Assembly: GCF_013167455.1 (NCBI RefSeq)
Contig: NZ_CP038328.1
Origin: Escherichia coli O157:H7
GTDB taxonomy: Bacteria; Pseudomonadota; Gammaproteobacteria; Enterobacterales; Enterobacteriaceae
Direction: 5' to 3' (one strand)
DNA: 64,000 nt
Part shown: one piece after another, positions 32,530-36,416 of the stretch
How the letters are laid out: every line of letters begins with the position of its first letter
Position numbering within the stretch: position 1 is the first letter of the stretch
The notes under the pieces: model-generated
What the model was told of the DNA's origin: nothing
The model's database searches: none
Seen by the model: the letters and a program-made list of their open reading frames with translations, nothing else
Position numbers and translations under genes: made by a program

Positions 32530-33342
32530 TCACTTTTCCGATGCAACACGGCGGGAAAAATCAGTAATCTGTCGAACAATATCCCGATGCTTGTTCAGCT
32601 CCCGCAGCGCGGCGCAGACACGCTCCCACTTCTGGACATGATTTTTCGCCCGACGCAGTTCACGGTTTGCCATATGCAGCGATGACAAAATCAAATCATC
32701 AGATCGCGTTGCAGTAAACGATGGCAGCGACTGCACAATGTCCGCCACAGTTTCTGTTTTAATATCTTCCTGTGTTGCAGCCTCCTGTACTGGTAACGCA
32801 ACACATGCAGGCTGAGGAAAGGCTTTACCATCAGTTTCCGCTACCGATGCTGCTTTCGGCTCTGCTGGTAAATTATCGCCCGGTATGCAGTAACGAAATT
32901 TACCGTTCTGGTTTACGCGAATCAGGCGTCCTTTGCTGATTGCCATTGCCAGCGTTGAAGCAACTTTGCGGGATGTTGTACCGAACAGCGTAGCCAGTTC
33001 ATCCGCCGTTTGTGGTCCGCGTTGTTCAATCGTCGCGGTTAAATCGCACTCTGAGATTTTCGCTACTGTTGCCGTGGTGGTTTCTTCCGGCAGTTCTGCC
33101 TGCATTGGCTGTTCCTGCTGAACGTTGTTATCGGCCACACGCCAGGTGTATACGCTTTTATCAACGAATCCAGCCTTTTTCAGTTCCCAAAGCTCGTTCA
33201 GCACTTCTTCACGACTGATATCAAGTCGCGCAGCCAGTTCTACCGACGTGGCTTTTCCCATTGCTTTCAGTGCACCAAAAACGGTTTCCATTAAAATTTC
33301 CTCCCGGTAAAAATCACTTCGCAATTCCTGGCTGGACGACAT
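32530..33342 (-). CDS. YdaW-like protein (start may be Met18 at 33291)
   Basis: 270-aa ORF following the DnaC-like gene, as in the Rac ydaV-ydaW arrangement. Confidence 0.5.
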
Positions 33343-34060
33343 TCGGACGCCAGCTCTCCCAGTTAAAATTCACCCATCGCCCGCCGTTCATGGTCATGCG
33401 ATCCATAATCCTCTCGCCGAGCAATGTTTTCATGGCCTCATAGTTCAGGTTTGTCAGCATCCCCACGCTGCGCATCGACGCTGTCCGGCGATCAACAATC
33501 TGGTGCAGCACCACCTGCTCGTTTTTTGTCTCGCGCTGAATGCCAATTTCATCAAGAACCAGCAGATCCACTTCGCACAGTTCCCGCAAAAATTTTTCGC
33601 CTGACTGCCCGTCGTCATAGCTGGCGTGCAGGGCGCTCATAACATCAGCCACGGTAACCACAATCACTGTCTGACCGTCTTTCAGCAGGCGATTCCCGAT
33701 AGCTGCCGCTAAGTGATTCTTCCCGGTACCAGGTTTTCCGCTGAACGCAAAATTTGTACACCCGGTCATCAGTTCATCGGCGATGGATTTCGCCTGGCTT
33801 AACGCGTATCGCTGGCCGTCGTTCTGCACCTGGTAATTCGCAAACGAGCATTTACGGTGCAACGGCTGGATGCCTGAGCGATTCAGAATTTTTTCCACCC
33901 GCAACTGACGATTCAGGCGGTTGATCTCCTCGCTACGTTTCTGGCCTTCAGCAAGTTGCCACTCGCGCCACTCCGCAACCGTTCTGAATGGGGCGGTTAC
34001 ATGTGGTGGGGCCAGTCTGCGGATACGCTCCAGAACGCCTCCTGTCGCAATATTTTTCAT
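33314..34060 (-). CDS. DnaC/IstB-like replicative helicase loader (YdaV-like)
   Basis: Walker A ([17 protein letters not shown]) and Walker B (LLVLDEIG) motifs. Confidence 0.8.
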
Positions 34061-34066
34061 GGTCTG

Positions 34067-34855
34067 TTACCCCCTGAAGCCTGGCGGGATCGCACTGTCC
34101 GGCAACGAGACGGTGTTAACCTGTCGGAGCAACGTCTCAGGCCGAACACCTTTCGGCGCGAACAGGCCCTGGTATTCATTGGCGATGCTGTTTCGAATCA
34201 CCAGCTCAGGTGTAAAACCCTGCTGACGGAATTTTTCCAGTTCCCGTATCGCCCCGTTAGCGCCCTGCTCCGTTCGAATCGGTTTTCGCAATGCCTGTCT
34301 GAACCGGACCCACTCATGCCAGAGTGTTTCCGGCAACCAATCGGGCAGCTCAATAGCCTCCGGCTCGAATTTTTTAGACGCTCGTTTTTGGCGAGGGGGA
34401 TTTAGGGGGAGATCAGTATTTAGATCTTCCTCTTCCTCTTCCTCTGGTAACGCTTTTTGATCCGTTTGTGTAACGCCGGCAGCGTTACCTTTTCGTTTCA
34501 GTTCACGTATTTTTGTAACTCGCTCGTTTGTAACCGCCCGTTTTTTAGAGCTTTTTCCGTTATGGCGTTCAAAGTTAGGTAGAGAAAGCCCAACGTCATT
34601 TTCGACCAGCCATCCAACCTGAATTAACGCATCAGCAAAACCAGCCATAAAAGAGATGCGATCTATTGCACTTTTTGTAACGCCGCGAGCGTTACAATCT
34701 GCATTACCGTCTATCATTTGTTGATCCGCCCATGCCCAGAAGCGAATAACCTTCCCTAATGCGGCATCTGGATCAATATTCAGAATCTCAGCAAGCCTGA
34801 ATATTTCCGGCTTATCCGGCGTAATAACCTCGAGCTTTATCCAGTTTGAAGCCAT
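34067..34855 (-). CDS. Replication initiation protein (YdaU-like)
   Basis: 262 aa upstream of the helicase loader; acidic linker (EEEEEED); contains inverted-repeat motifs within its coding sequence. Confidence 0.6.
   Translation of the reverse strand: MASNWIKLEVITPDKPEIFRLAEILNIDPDAALGKVIRFWAWADQQMIDGNADCNARGVTKSAIDRISFMAGFADALIQVGWLVENDVGLSLPNFERHNGKSSKKRAVTNERVTKIRELKRKGNAAGVTQTDQKALPEEEEEEDLNTDLPLNPPRQKRASKKFEPEAIELPDWLPETLWHEWVRFRQALRKPIRTEQGANGAIRELEKFRQQGFTPELVIRNSIANEYQGLFAPKGVRPETLLRQVNTVSLPDSAIPPGFRG
34469..34488. repeat. Inverted-repeat motif TGTAACGC-N5-GCGTTAC, copy 1
   Basis: tgtaacgccggcagcgttac inside the replication gene. Confidence 0.6.
34685..34705. repeat. Inverted-repeat motif, copy 2
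   Basis: tgtaacgccgcgagcgttaca. Confidence 0.6.
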
Positions 34856-34867
34856 TTGTTTTCACCT

Positions 34868-34888
34868 TGTAACGCTCGCAGCGTTACA
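34868..34888. repeat. Inverted-repeat motif, copy 3 (just upstream of the replication gene start)
   Basis: tgtaacgctcgcagcgttaca. Confidence 0.6.
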
Positions 34889-34932
34889 TTTAACTGATAC
34901 CGAACAAAACAATCCGGCACGATTAATTTCAA

Positions 34933-35355
34933 TCAATGCACTACGACAGAATCACCGGGCGACCCACCACCGCTGAAATGTGCTTTCCGGTAAACGGCCT
35001 GGACTGCATCATCATGCGCATCAATTGCCGTACTCAACGCTTCCTGCGCCGCCAGTAATGCACGGCGTTCCAGGGTATCGAAGATGCAGAGTCGGTGACG
35101 CAGCTCGCGCGGAAGAATTGCCAGAACCGCAGGGATCAGTTTCTGAATTTTTTCCCTTTGCGCTTTCGTTTCACCTTTCAACCAACGGTGATAGATATTC
35201 TGCTGATTGTTCCAGTCCTTGCCTGGTACCAGGGGCAATTCGCCGCCCCCCTGGCGCAGATATTCATCAGTAATTGCGTTAGCGACCCACGCCTGCCCTT
35301 TTTCGGCTGCCAGGGCTAACAGCACTGATTCGATGTGCTCATGCCTGATTTTCAT
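34933..35355 (-). CDS. YdaT-like protein (proposed CII-like regulator in Rac-type prophages)
   Basis: 140-aa ORF immediately after the cro-like gene with overlapping stop/start. Confidence 0.5.
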   Translation of the reverse strand: MKIRHEHIESVLLALAAEKGQAWVANAITDEYLRQGGGELPLVPGKDWNNQQNIYHRWLKGETKAQREKIQKLIPAVLAILPRELRHRLCIFDTLERRALLAAQEALSTAIDAHDDAVQAVYRKAHFSGGGSPGDSVVVH

Positions 35356-35594
35356 GAATCAACCGCTCCTATGCTGTTTTCGCTATGCTTACCGTCTGGG
35401 GGGAATACATCGTCAAGTCCACAATGAGCGCCAAGCCGATTAAGGGTAGAAACAATTTTTCTGCACTCCTCTAGTCCAGGGGTACGAAAATTTGCTTCGT
35501 AATTTGCCAGTCGGCTTTGTATCCACCCTAACTGAACAGCAAGTTGTCTTTGAGACAGCCCAAGCTGTTTTCGATATGTTGAAATTTTGTTCAT
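35352..35594 (-). CDS. Cro-like HTH regulator (YdaS-like)
   Basis: 80 aa with HTH (LGLSQRQLAVQLGWIQSRLANYE); divergent from the repressor gene. Confidence 0.65.
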   Translation of the reverse strand: MNKISTYRKQLGLSQRQLAVQLGWIQSRLANYEANFRTPGLEECRKIVSTLNRLGAHCGLDDVFPPDGKHSENSIGAVDS

Positions 35595-35690
35595 TGAAAA
35601 CCTCCGATGACAATTTTAAACACATCTTGTGTTATATGGTCAAGCTGTTTTGTGTTTTGTGTAAATCACGATTCGTGATACAAGGATGCA
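35595..35690. promoter_or_regulatory. Divergent promoter/operator region between cro-like and repressor genes
   Basis: Two palindromes: AACACAtctTGTGTT (35629..35643) and ATCACGAtTCGTGAT (35665..35679), plus a ttttgtg direct repeat. Confidence 0.5.
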
Positions 35691-36110
35691 ATGGAAAAAG
35701 AAAACGAAAAAATTGCCGCTAGTAGGCTCAATGACAAAATTGCAATGCGTCTTAAAGAGCGCAGGCAGAAGCTTGGTTTATCTCAAGGAAAACTTGCTGA
35801 AATCTGCGGATGGACGCAATCGCGTATAGGTAACTATGAGGCGGGTAGCAGAAATGTTGGAGTGCATGACGCTGTCGTATTGGGAAAGGCACTTGGCATA
35901 TCTCCTCCTGAGCTCCTCTTTGGAGAACAGGAATCTTCTGAATTGTGGTTAAATGAATCCCAACGAAAACTTCTTGAGTTGTTTAACCAGCTACCGGGCT
36001 CAGAACAACAACGAATGATTGAGCTATTTGAAGTCCGGCTAAAAGAAATCGATGAGTATGTAGAAAAATATTTGAGAGGCAGGCTTAAAGATAATCCCCC
36101 ACCGGAGTAA
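35691..36110 (+). CDS. Prophage repressor (HTH_XRE, cI/RacR-like)
   Basis: 139 aa with HTH (LGLSQGKLAEICGWTQSRIGNYE); followed by an intrinsic terminator. Confidence 0.65.
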   Translation: MEKENEKIAASRLNDKIAMRLKERRQKLGLSQGKLAEICGWTQSRIGNYEAGSRNVGVHDAVVLGKALGISPPELLFGEQESSELWLNESQRKLLELFNQLPGSEQQRMIELFEVRLKEIDEYVEKYLRGRLKDNPPPE

Positions 36111-36140
36111 TGATCTTGCTATCACAGTAATATGCCAATC

Positions 36141-36166
36141 AGCCCGCTATCAGCGGGCTTTTTTTG
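36141..36166 (+). terminator. Intrinsic terminator after the repressor gene
   Basis: Hairpin agcccgctatcagcgggct plus T7. Confidence 0.6.
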
Positions 36167-36416
36167 TACCATCATCATATGACACCCACCACAAAACACA
36201 TTTCGTGTTGACACAAGAAAACGCATTGTGTTTAATAAGCATATCCAAACAACGCCCCACCAGAGAACGGCAGGACAATACCTCGAGTTATCCAGCCACT
36301 GAACAGGGCTAAGTAGCCAGCCTGAGGCATACGAACATGACGGCAGTTGTTGATTGATACAAAGCGCAGTAGATAAAACGTTCCGCCACCCGGCGTTAAG
36401 GGGAAATGAGGTCAAC

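What the first reader, a model, noticed from the sequence alone, without database searches (positions are those of the whole stretch)
34440..34890. Three spaced copies of a 20-21 bp inverted repeat in and just upstream of the replication initiator gene
TGTAACGC-N5-GCGTTAC(A) occurs at 34469, 34685 and 34868 (spacings 216 and 183 bp), with additional gtaac half-sites nearby. Two copies lie inside the ydaU-like coding sequence and one in its 5' region, reminiscent of origin iterons embedded in lambda O, or of operator sites for the adjacent regulators.
Basis: seen in the sequence. Interest (0 to 1): 0.45.

Follow-up and report, generated by a model that had tools for sequence, protein, structure and literature searches.

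The report
Probable replication origin inside initiator gene
The three palindromes are real, selected DNA sites that travel together with the DNA-binding half of a prophage replication initiator, so they most likely mark the phage's replication origin, built like phage lambda's but for a large, uncharacterised initiator family.

Summary

They are selected as DNA, not as protein:
- The arms are invariant in relatives about 68% identical, while the spacers vary.
- The central palindrome is read in two different codon phases.
- Codons under the arms are fixed (GGT, AAC and GTT, each 37/37).

All three sit in a 506-bp cassette (34429-34934) that also encodes the initiator's N-terminal winged-helix domain. 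This cassette has no similarity to K-12 Rac, although both flanks are 92% identical.

Across distant phages the half-site changes by lineage (GTAACG, GTCCGC, GTAGAC, GTCAC) but is the same at every site within one genome. The central cluster always abuts an all-purine tract, as in lambda ori.

In the reverse test, 112 of 153 such palindromes in viral contigs lie in homologous genes, at two fixed positions.

Best reading: binding sites for the initiator's own N-domain, forming an origin embedded in its gene. The published YdaT operator is a different sequence.

Binding and origin activity are inferred, not shown. I rate this a new variant of a known kind, of moderate interest.

The parts
34868..34888 (.). 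Palindrome C (TGTAACGC TGCGA GCGTTACA on the gene strand). It lies in the ydaT-initiator intergenic gap and ends at the SD AGGTGA (34862-34867), 13 nt before the ATG. It is specific to the E. coli Rac-like lineage.
   Evidence: Kept in 77 of 80 close relatives, with invariant arms and 4 spacer variants. Absent from relatives about 68% identical. In the viral sample only 1 of the 112 gene-associated palindromes lies upstream of the ATG.
34676..34696 (.). Palindrome A, at gene nt 160-180. It encodes the low-confidence loop (aa 47-60) of the N-domain. Its position is conserved across the family.
   Evidence: Codons under the arms are fixed: GGT 37/37, AAC 37/37, GTT 37/37, against 24%, 58% and 31% elsewhere. 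The loop has pLDDT below 50 at aa 50-54. 58 palindromes in viral contigs lie at nt 140-170.
34469..34489 (.). Palindrome B, at gene nt 367-387. It is the core of the central, origin-like cluster in the segment that encodes the inter-domain linker.
   Evidence: It is read in a different frame in the window than in Klebsiella, ZX5 and BUCT554 phages. Across representatives it occurs in two codon phases, 36 versus 15. It has at least 10 spacer variants with invariant arms among close relatives.
34446..34453 (.). Extra half-site (GCGTTACC on the gene strand) that directly abuts the purine tract. This is the most conserved junction in the family: CGTTACC[A/T]AGAGAAG.
34514..34535 (.). Two degenerate half-sites (TGTAAC at 34514 and 34529), corresponding to gene-strand GTTACA at nt 322 and 336.
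   Evidence: Only partly conserved in relatives.
34425..34445 (-). A 21-nt all-purine tract AGAGGAAGAGGAAGAGGAAGA, which encodes the acidic linker EEEEEED. Proposed unwinding or structure-prone element.
   Evidence: The longest purine run (median 24 nt) falls at nt 360-440 in 72 of the 76 family representatives that have one. Arg codons inside the tract are AGA in 160 of 161 cases, against 10% elsewhere. Lambda ori has an 18-nt purine run next to its iterons.
34395..34424 (-). A short AT-rich piece with two GATC sites (34411, 34423) and a pair of C5 tracts (CCCCCTAAATCCCCC on the gene strand).
   Evidence: Analogous C-tract pairs or alternating CG/CA runs occupy the same place in other lineages. 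Function is not tested.
34429..34934 (-). The origin-specificity cassette: all three palindromes, the N-domain coding sequence and most of the purine tract. It is replaced as one unit relative to K-12 Rac.
   Evidence: blastn shows 92% identity over 32842-34428 and 34935-35361, with no similarity in between. This agrees with the coverage pattern in 1444 E. coli genomes.
34067..34855 (-). Replication initiator gene (262 aa). It has an N-terminal winged-helix-like domain (aa 1 to about 115, window 34511-34855), a linker, and a DnaT-like C-terminal domain (aa 170-262, window 34070-34348).
33314..34060 (-). DnaC-like helicase loader (ydaV), immediately downstream in the same operon.
   Evidence: PHROG 50, E=2e-83. 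RefSeq annotation ydaV.

Best explanation
The palindromes are binding sites for dimers of the initiator's own N-terminal winged-helix domain. Together with flanking half-sites they form a replication origin embedded in the initiator gene.

Proposed mechanism:
1. The prophage's rightward early operon (cro-like, ydaT-like, initiator, DnaC-like loader) is transcribed and the initiator is made.
2. N-domain dimers occupy the central cluster (34446-34535), which lies in the linker-coding segment, and also palindromes A and C about 200 bp to either side.
3. The occupied sites assemble into a higher-order complex comparable to the lambda O-some.
4. This destabilises the adjoining all-purine tract and short AT-rich tract (34410-34445).
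5. The DnaT-like C-terminal domain, working with the DnaC-like loader, brings in host DnaB.

Palindrome C touches the initiator's ribosome-binding site and is lineage-specific. It may additionally give negative feedback on initiator synthesis.

Shown here:
- The sites exist and are non-random.
- They are under selection as DNA.
- They are co-inherited with the N-domain and change in concert with it.
- The layout relative to the purine tract is conserved.
- The fold prediction and the DnaT homology.

Inferred, not shown:
- Which protein binds the sites.
- Origin activity.
- Unwinding at the purine tract.
- Looping between sites.
- Feedback through palindrome C.
For: 1. Non-random. Three perfect copies occur only here in 64 kb; 0.13 expected.

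2. Selected as DNA.
- Arms are invariant and spacers variable in relatives about 68% identical and in 80 close relatives.
- Palindrome B is read in two codon phases.
- Synonymous positions under the arms are fixed, 37/37 for each of three codons.

3. Cassette. The 506 bp at 34429-34934 carry all sites plus the N-domain and are swapped as a unit against K-12 Rac. K-12's own cassette has its own repeat, GTTCAAAC x3, in the same linker position.

4. Concerted change. The half-site is GTAACG in ten lineages, GTCCGC in epsilon15, phiPSA1 and Carin1, GTAGAC in Raharianne and GTCAC in Vibrio phage 1.211.A. It is identical at both clusters within each genome. It does not follow the host: Pseudomonas phages carry either type. 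It does not follow neighbouring genes, which differ.

5. Enrichment. In 68 epsilon15-like loci GTCCGC occurs 7.6 times per 540-nt gene segment, against 58 times in 150 kb outside.

6. Reverse test. 112 of 153 GTAACGC-N5-GCGTTAC palindromes in 120 viral stretches lie in N-domain homologue genes, at nt 140-170 (58) or nt 320-400 (52).

7. Half-sites within clusters sit 11-13 bp apart, about one helical turn.

8. Origin-like surroundings. The purine tract lies next to the last half-site in 72 of 76 representatives, with AGA Arg codons forced. Lambda ori has the same order of elements: dyad-symmetric iterons, then an 18-nt purine run (PMC7466680).

9. Protein. The N-domain is predicted to be a winged helix. 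The C-domain is DnaT-like. A DnaC-like, DnaB-like or P-like gene follows in several phages.
Against: - There is no experimental evidence for binding or origin function for this family. None was found in the searchable literature.
- The region is not strongly AT-rich; the lowest GC is about 0.375-0.40.
- The window has only one full palindrome plus scattered half-sites in the central cluster, not a tight iteron array.
- Distances between clusters (192-300 bp) show no consistent helical phasing.
- No DnaA-box or IHF-like sites were found.
- The specificity classes coincide with deep clades, so the concerted change rests on only four or so independent switches.
Confidence: 0.7

Rival explanations
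1. The sites bind the initiator but serve only in control, not as the place where replication starts. They would act through autorepression, or through handcuffing-type copy control as in the inverted repeats of iteron plasmids. The true origin would lie elsewhere.
For: Palindrome C ends at the initiator's Shine-Dalgarno sequence. Inverted repeats bound by Rep dimers are classic autoregulatory operators in iteron plasmids (established knowledge). The sites are dispersed over 420 bp rather than forming a tight array.
Against: No promoter-like site is predicted next to any palindrome. The gene lies inside a longer operon. The central cluster always abuts a purine plus AT-rich tract in the inter-domain linker, exactly as in lambda ori. 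Palindrome C is missing in most lineages while the intragenic clusters are universal.
Confidence: 0.13
2. The palindromes act as hairpins in RNA or single-stranded DNA. Possible roles are mRNA stability or processing, translational control of the initiator, or single-strand priming signals. Under this reading they are not duplex protein-binding sites.
For: Each palindrome folds into an 8-10 bp hairpin with z-scores of -2.5 to -4.0. The nested arrangement (-> -> <- <-) could also form a longer interrupted stem.
Against: - A structural role would not require the same arm sequence at every site in a genome, yet this is always the case.
- Stems never show independent compensatory changes between sites.
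- The numbers of forward and reverse half-sites are often unequal, e.g. 3+2 in CBW1004C and 1+3 in QkW1.
- There is no Rfam match.
- Any palindrome gives a favourable fold, so the z-scores are uninformative.
Confidence: 0.07
3. The palindromes are operators for the neighbouring regulators: the ydaT/CII-like, cro-like or cI/RacR-like proteins.
For: They lie close to these genes. One palindrome sits in the ydaT-initiator gap.
Against: YdaT proteins of Rac and CP-933P bind TTGATT-N6-AATCAA (PMC11879457 and PMC9986795). Such a box sits over the ydaT ATG at 35345-35362. The ydaT gene is 93% identical to K-12's, whereas the palindrome cassette is unrelated. The palindromes are conserved in phages with quite different neighbours, such as methylases, KilAC antirepressors and hypothetical proteins. 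None occurs in the cI-cro intergenic region.
Confidence: 0.03
4. The repeats are chance or a by-product of a repeated peptide motif (G-N-A-x-x-V-T), with no function as DNA.
For: The family consensus protein contains NAxxVT twice.
Against: - One copy is non-coding.
- The central copy is read in two frames and so gives different peptides.
- Synonymous codon positions are fixed 37/37.
- Shuffles expect 0.13 copies.
- The peptide lies in a low-confidence loop.
Confidence: 0.01

Closest known systems
Lambda ori inside gene O (lambdoid O/P replication module; also 933W and P27 Stx phages)
   Same: - The origin lies inside the initiator ORF, in the segment between the DNA-binding N-domain and the C-domain that deals with the helicase loader.
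- The sites have dyad symmetry and would be bound by dimers. Lambda iterons are ATCCCTC-N-GAGGGA, and O is a dimer (PMC7466680).
- A purine-rich/AT-rich tract follows the sites.
- Ori plus N-domain behave as an exchangeable specificity cassette.
- A helicase-loader gene follows.
   Different: - The N-domain has no detectable homology to lambda O (hhalign probability 1.4%; no Pfam hit).
- Lambda has 4-6 tandem 18-bp iterons within about 90 bp. Here there is one palindrome plus flanking half-sites at about 12-bp spacing in the centre, a second palindrome or cluster inside the N-domain coding region about 200-300 bp away, and in this lineage a third upstream of the gene.
- The adjoining tract is a (GAR)n all-purine repeat and is only modestly AT-rich.
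- The C-domain is DnaT-like and the partner is DnaC-like rather than lambda P.
K-12 Rac prophage replication module (ydaU-ydaV, oriJ)
   Same: - Same operon order: cro-like, ydaT, initiator, ydaV.
- 92% nucleotide identity in ydaT, in the initiator's C-terminal half and in ydaV.
- Rac is reported to have an active origin, oriJ (PMC3945230).
- K-12's cassette also has a repeated motif in the linker-coding segment, followed by an AT/purine-rich stretch and the shared C-tract pair.
   Different: The 506-bp cassette is unrelated. It has a different N-domain (RefSeq names the K-12 protein 'YdaU family protein', the window's 'hypothetical protein') and a different repeat (GTTCAAAC against GTAACGC palindromes). 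I could not find the sequence-level position of oriJ in the accessible literature.
Bacillus phage SPP1 G38P with oriL (inside gene 38) and oriR; phage P4 ori/crr
   Same: The initiator binds repeats inside its own gene, and further separated copies of the same repeat contribute to replication through looping or bridging (from my own knowledge; not checked here).
   Different: The proteins are unrelated. Their sites are direct repeats, and the second site set lies kilobases away rather than about 200 bp. No experimental data exist for the present family.
Iteron-plasmid Rep proteins (pSC101 RepA, F RepE, R6K pi)
   Same: Winged-helix initiators in which dimers recognise inverted repeats and autoregulate, while the same half-site is used in origin repeats (established knowledge). 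Palindrome C at the ribosome-binding site could play the operator role.
   Different: No promoter overlaps the palindromes. The origin lies inside the gene, not beside it. No direct 19-22-bp iteron array is present. No sequence homology was detected.

Membership tests
Lambda-type origin embedded in the initiator gene | Repeated initiator-binding sites with dyad symmetry inside the initiator ORF, in the segment between the N- and C-terminal domains | tested here: met
   Palindrome B and its half-sites lie at gene nt 322-411, between the N-domain (aa 1 to about 115) and the DnaT-like C-domain (aa 170-262). The same placement is seen in 15 diverse phages and 68 epsilon15-like loci.
Lambda-type origin embedded in the initiator gene | A tandem array of four or more complete iterons about 20 bp apart | tested here: not met
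   The window has one full palindrome in the centre plus 1-3 half-sites. The two other palindromes are 207 and 399 bp away. Lambda has four 18-bp iterons within 85 bp.
Lambda-type origin embedded in the initiator gene | An AT-rich/purine-rich unwinding tract adjoining the sites | tested here: inconclusive
   A 21-nt all-purine tract directly follows the last half-site. It is conserved family-wide with forced AGA codons, and lambda has an 18-nt purine run at the same place. However, GC only falls to about 0.40, and unwinding cannot be tested here.
Lambda-type origin embedded in the initiator gene | Initiator homologous to lambda O (Pfam Phage_rep_O N-domain) | tested here: not met
   No Pfam hit, even at E<=10. 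hhalign of the family profile against lambda O gives probability 1.4%. Only aa 100-236 match PHROG 678 'O-like'.
Lambda-type origin embedded in the initiator gene | Sites and DNA-binding domain are exchanged together as a specificity module | tested here: met
   The 506-bp cassette 34429-34934 is unrelated to K-12 Rac and sits between flanks that are 92% identical. The half-site changes in concert with the N-domain lineage.
Lambda-type origin embedded in the initiator gene | Initiator binds the sites, and the fragment has origin activity | not testable with these tools
   Needs EMSA or footprinting and a plasmid replication assay.
YdaT (CII-like) operator | Inverted repeat TTGATT-N6-AATCAA (YdaT-box) | tested here: not met
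   The palindromes are TGTAACGC-N5-GCGTTACA. The published box (PMC11879457, PMC9986795) is found separately at 35345-35362.
YdaU family (K-12 Rac YdaU) | Homology over the whole protein, including the N-terminal domain | tested here: not met
   Only window 34000-34428 (the C-terminal half plus the start of ydaV) matches K-12. The N-terminal 120+ aa are unrelated. RefSeq names the window protein 'hypothetical protein'.
DnaT-like C-terminal domain | Sequence similarity to the DnaT C-terminal (ssDNA-binding) domain | tested here: met
   aa 170-262 match PDB 2RU8 (E=1.6e-4) and 9ZBT (E=4.9e-4). There is a weak NCBIfam DnaT hit and a match to PHROG 6451 'primosomal protein'.
Iteron-plasmid Rep autoregulatory operator | Inverted repeat overlapping the rep promoter | tested here: not met
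   No sigma-70-like promoter is predicted near any palindrome; the only matches on that strand are at 35613-35584 and 36138-36110.

The most novel reading that the evidence does not exclude
This would be a widespread but undescribed type of phage origin, present in about 6,800 50%-identity clusters of the N-domain.

In it, the initiator's sites are split between the coding sequence of its own DNA-binding domain and the linker, with an upstream site added in E. coli. The sites would be bridged into a loop or wrap. Opening would then occur at a conserved all-purine mirror-repeat tract capable of forming H-DNA, flanked by C-tract or alternating-purine/pyrimidine sequences, rather than at a classical AT-rich unwinding element.

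The four half-site classes would then provide a readable recognition code for a new winged-helix family.
Probability: 0.2. Interest if true: 0.65.

Novelty: new variant of a known kind. Interest (0 to 1): 0.45.

Why it matters
If correct, this gives a sequence-level prediction of the replication origin and of initiator specificity for a very large, unannotated family of phage and prophage initiators. The family has no Pfam or NCBIfam model and is labelled 'hypothetical protein' in RefSeq. It is present in Rac-like prophages of at least 678 of 5,426 complete E. coli genomes, and in phages of Salmonella, Klebsiella, Pseudomonas, Xanthomonas, Ralstonia and Vibrio.

It explains why two peptide motifs (G-N-A-x-x-V-T) and an acidic or REEKRREE linker are conserved: they are translations of DNA signals.

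It also defines a 0.5-kb exchangeable origin-specificity cassette. This is useful for annotating prophages, for judging whether cryptic prophages can still replicate, for building compatible phage-derived replicons, and for testing how winged-helix specificity evolves.

Tried and rejected
- **Family and structure look-ups.** Pfam scan of the initiator gave no hit at all. NCBIfam gave only a sub-threshold DnaT hit. A PDB sequence search with the family profile found nothing. Rfam found nothing for 34000-35700.
- **First viral-contig scan.** The scan with the window's N-domain returned only relatives 96-100% identical. These served for within-lineage conservation but not for diversity, which came from tblastn against phage records and a second scan seeded with epsilon15.
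- **Literature.** Searches for ydaU, oriJ, epsilon15 origin, or the motif itself found no description of these sites. The search by sequence string returned only unrelated primer hits. The oriJ plasmid paper (PubMed id 10964622) is not held.
- **Promoter and terminator scan.** Nothing beyond chance. The terminator-like call at 34470-34488 on the antisense strand is just palindrome B followed by a broken T-run that is not conserved in relatives.
- **Host-factor sites.** No DnaA-box or IHF-consensus matches at 34300-34950, and no unusual GATC clustering (3 per 150 nt; window maximum 4).
- **Helical phasing between clusters.** Distances of 192, 207, 209, 211, 216, 231, 279 and 300 bp give no common phase, so there is no support for a fixed loop geometry.
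- **Composition.** Only a shallow GC dip.
- **RNA folding.** Favourable, but trivially so for palindromes.
- **Recognition residues.** aa 107-113 differ between half-site classes, but this is confounded with phylogeny, so I did not pursue it.
Full report
**1. The observation**

TGTAACGC-N5-GCGTTAC occurs perfectly at window 34469, 34676 and 34868. It occurs nowhere else in 64 kb, even with two mismatches allowed. Dinucleotide-preserving shuffles give a mean of 0.13 matches.

The true spacings are 207 and 192 bp.

All relevant genes are on the minus strand:
- a DnaC-like loader, ydaV (33314-34060)
- a 262-aa 'replication initiation protein' (34067-34855; PHROG 2509, E=4e-87; RefSeq 'hypothetical protein')
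- a ydaT/CII-like gene (34933-35355)
- a cro-like gene (35352-35594)

A cI-like gene lies on the plus strand (35691-36110).

On the gene strand, palindrome C (34888-34868) lies in the 77-bp ydaT-initiator gap and ends at the Shine-Dalgarno sequence AGGTGA. Palindrome A is at gene nt 160-180 and palindrome B at nt 367-387. Extra GTAAC/GTTAC half-sites at 34447, 34515 and 34530 make the stretch around 34431-34530 the densest 100 nt in the window, with 5 half-sites against at most 3 elsewhere.

**2. The palindromes are selected as DNA, not as protein**

The N-terminal half of the gene is about 68% identical at nucleotide level to genes in Klebsiella phage ST11-OXA245phi3.2, Enterobacter phage BUCT554, and E. 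coli phages ZX5 and TL-2011b.
- In the five-way alignment the arms of palindromes A and B are invariant while the 5-nt spacers differ.
- Indels of 2 and 11 nt put palindrome B in a different reading frame in the window (K-G-N-A-A-G-V-T) than in the other four (K-V-T-L-A-A-L-Q).

Among 80 close relatives from viral contigs, 70 keep all three palindromes. The arms never vary where a site is present, and palindrome B shows at least 10 spacer variants.

Across 77 representatives below 85% amino-acid identity:
- The central palindrome is read in two codon phases, 36 against 15.
- At palindrome A the codons under the arms are fixed: GGT 37/37, AAC 37/37 and GTT 37/37. For the same residues elsewhere in the domain the figures are 24%, 58% and 31%.

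The peptide encoded by palindrome A falls in the only low-confidence loop of the predicted N-domain (pLDDT below 50 at aa 50-54).

**3. The sites belong to a cassette with the initiator's N-domain**

Against K-12 Rac, the window is 92% identical over 32842-34428. That segment covers the genes downstream of ydaV, ydaV itself and the initiator's C-terminal half. It is 93% identical over 34935-35361 (ydaT). The 506 bp in between show no similarity (the same pattern appears in the coverage of 1,444 E. coli genomes).

That cassette contains all three palindromes, the half-sites, most of the purine tract, and the coding sequence of the N-domain, and nothing else.

K-12's own cassette carries a different repeat, GTTCAAAC. 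It has two direct copies and one inverted copy at gene nt 394-457 and none elsewhere in 5.4 kb. The repeat is followed by an AT/purine-rich stretch and the shared C-tract pair. Rac is reported to have an active origin, oriJ (PMC3945230). I could not find its sequence-level position.

**4. Family-wide architecture and concerted change**

tblastn with the N-domain found 59 phage records, down to 34% identity. I fetched eleven diverse ones.

Every one has a cluster of a short half-site at gene nt ~330-410. Nearly all have a second cluster or palindrome at nt ~55-200.

The half-site differs by lineage:
- GTAACG in the window, the four enterobacterial phages, Xylella phage Usme, CBW1004C-Prop1, PAN70, QkW1 and VW-6S
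- GTCCGC in epsilon15, phiPSA1 and Carin1
- GTAGAC in Raharianne
- GTCAC in Vibrio phage 1.211.A

Within a genome the half-site is the same at both places. The peptide at palindrome A changes accordingly: G-N-A-x-x-V-T, G-H-A-P-L-V-T, V-D-G-A-A-S-T.

The half-site does not follow the host. Pseudomonas phages carry either GTAACG or GTCCGC, and Uetakeviruses ZX5 and epsilon15 differ. It does not follow neighbouring genes either, which vary.

In 68 epsilon15-like viral loci GTCCGC occurs 7.6 times per 540-nt gene segment, typically as -> -> <- <- at nt 55-101 and again at nt 334-369. Outside that segment it occurs 58 times in 150 kb. Half-sites within a cluster are 11-13 bp apart, about one helical turn.

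Of 153 palindromes in them, 112 lie within a gene encoding an N-domain homologue. Of these, 58 are at nt 140-170 and 52 at nt 320-400.

**5. Origin-like surroundings**

The last half-site directly abuts an all-purine tract. In the window this is AGAGGAAGAGGAAGAGGAAGA (34425-34445); in most other lineages it is AGAGAAGAGAAGAGAAGAGAAGA.
- In 72 of the 76 representatives that have a purine run of 8 nt or more, the longest run of an 800-nt segment (median 24 nt) falls at nt 360-440.
- Arg codons inside the tract are AGA in 160 of 161 cases, against 10% elsewhere, even in phages with 63% GC. Purine content is therefore selected as such.

Beyond the tract comes a short AT-rich stretch. After that come either C-tract pairs with a following G-run, or alternating CG/CA runs. 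In the window these are two GATC sites and CCCCCTAAATCCCCC.

Lambda's annotated ori shows the same order inside gene O (PMC7466680): four dyad-symmetric iterons (ATCCCTC...GAGGGA), then an 18-nt purine run in an AT-rich tract.

**6. The protein**

The N-domain family is large: 6,814 50%-identity clusters at E<=1e-3. It has no Pfam or NCBIfam model and no homology to lambda O.

The C-terminal 93 residues match the DnaT C-domain (PDB 2RU8, E=1.6e-4). Downstream genes in relatives are DnaC-like, DnaB-like or P-like.

**7. Interpretation**

The only protein-coding element that always accompanies the sites is the N-domain itself. The most economical explanation is therefore that N-domain dimers bind the palindromes, and that the central cluster plus the purine/AT tract is the replication origin. 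Palindromes A and C would be auxiliary sites, acting through complex assembly or looping. Palindrome C might also give feedback at the ribosome-binding site.

Binding, origin firing, unwinding and looping are inferred, not shown.

**8. Rivals**

- **YdaT operators are excluded.** The published box is TTGATT-N6-AATCAA. It is present separately at 35345-35362, and ydaT is conserved with K-12 while the cassette is not.
- **RNA or single-strand hairpins fold but do not explain the data.** They do not account for identical arms at every site, unequal numbers of forward and reverse half-sites, or the lack of independent compensatory change. There is no Rfam match.
- **A control-only role cannot be excluded without experiments.** It fits the conserved linker position and purine tract less well. 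No promoter overlaps the sites.

**9. Novelty and score**

An origin embedded in the initiator gene, with an exchangeable ori/N-domain cassette, is the lambda paradigm. What differs here:
- The initiator domain is unrelated and unannotated.
- The sites are arrays of palindromic half-sites split into two or three clusters, one of them inside the coding sequence of the binding domain itself.
- The adjoining element is a (GAR)n purine tract.

I found no description of this in the accessible literature, although older subscription papers on oriJ are not held.

I rate it a new variant of a known kind, with interest 0.45. It is a solid and useful prediction that can be tested directly, but it would not greatly surprise a phage-replication specialist.

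Noticed in passing
window 35345-35362: A YdaT-box-like inverted repeat (CTGATTTTCATGAATCAA, one mismatch to TTGATT-N6-AATCAA) overlaps the ATG of the ydaT-like gene. This is the same position as the footprinted YdaT-box of K-12 Rac (PMC11879457). A second one-mismatch match lies at 42283-42300.
   Followed up: partly
window 34395-34424 and the equivalent place in loci L088, L089, L092, L226, L227, L234, L270 and others: Just past the purine tract, different lineages carry different structure-prone sequences. These are paired C5-7 tracts followed by a G-run (CCCCCCTTACCCCCC..GGGGG), or alternating runs such as CACACACACAC or GCGCGCG. The window has CCCCCTAAATCCCCC and two GATC sites. Function is unknown. 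They encode P-P-x-P-P at the start of the C-terminal module.
   Followed up: partly
window 34428/34429: The left boundary of the swapped cassette relative to K-12 Rac falls at the edge of the conserved purine tract (GATC|TTCC...). The conserved tract may itself be the crossover point for exchanging origin cassettes.
   Followed up: no
L096 2968-3032 (K-12 Rac ydaU nt 394-457): K-12 Rac YdaU, which has a different N-domain, carries its own repeat GTTCAAAC: two direct copies and one inverted copy, plus degenerate copies (GATGTTGAAG, GATGTCAAC). They sit in the linker-coding segment and are a candidate sequence-level location for oriJ.
   Followed up: partly
initiator aa 104-113 (window 34517-34546): Residues after the conserved H-N-G-x-x-x-K-x-R-A motif differ with half-site class. 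They read A-[LV]-T-x-x-R-V in GTAACG lineages, against A-[QN]-[DK]-x-[DE]-R-[KQ] in GTCCGC and GTAGAC lineages. This may be part of the recognition surface, but it is confounded with phylogeny.
   Followed up: no
window 34697-34708: Relative to relatives about 68% identical, the window lineage has a 12-nt insertion, GGTAATGCAGAT, just before palindrome A. It looks like a degenerate duplicate of the left arm (GGTAATGC against TGTAACGC) and adds four residues to the loop.
   Followed up: no
window 35362-36237: The immunity region (cro-like and cI-like genes and their intergenic operators) is also unrelated to K-12 Rac's ydaS/racR, while ydaT next to it is 93% identical. This is a second swapped cassette in the same early region.
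   Followed up: no
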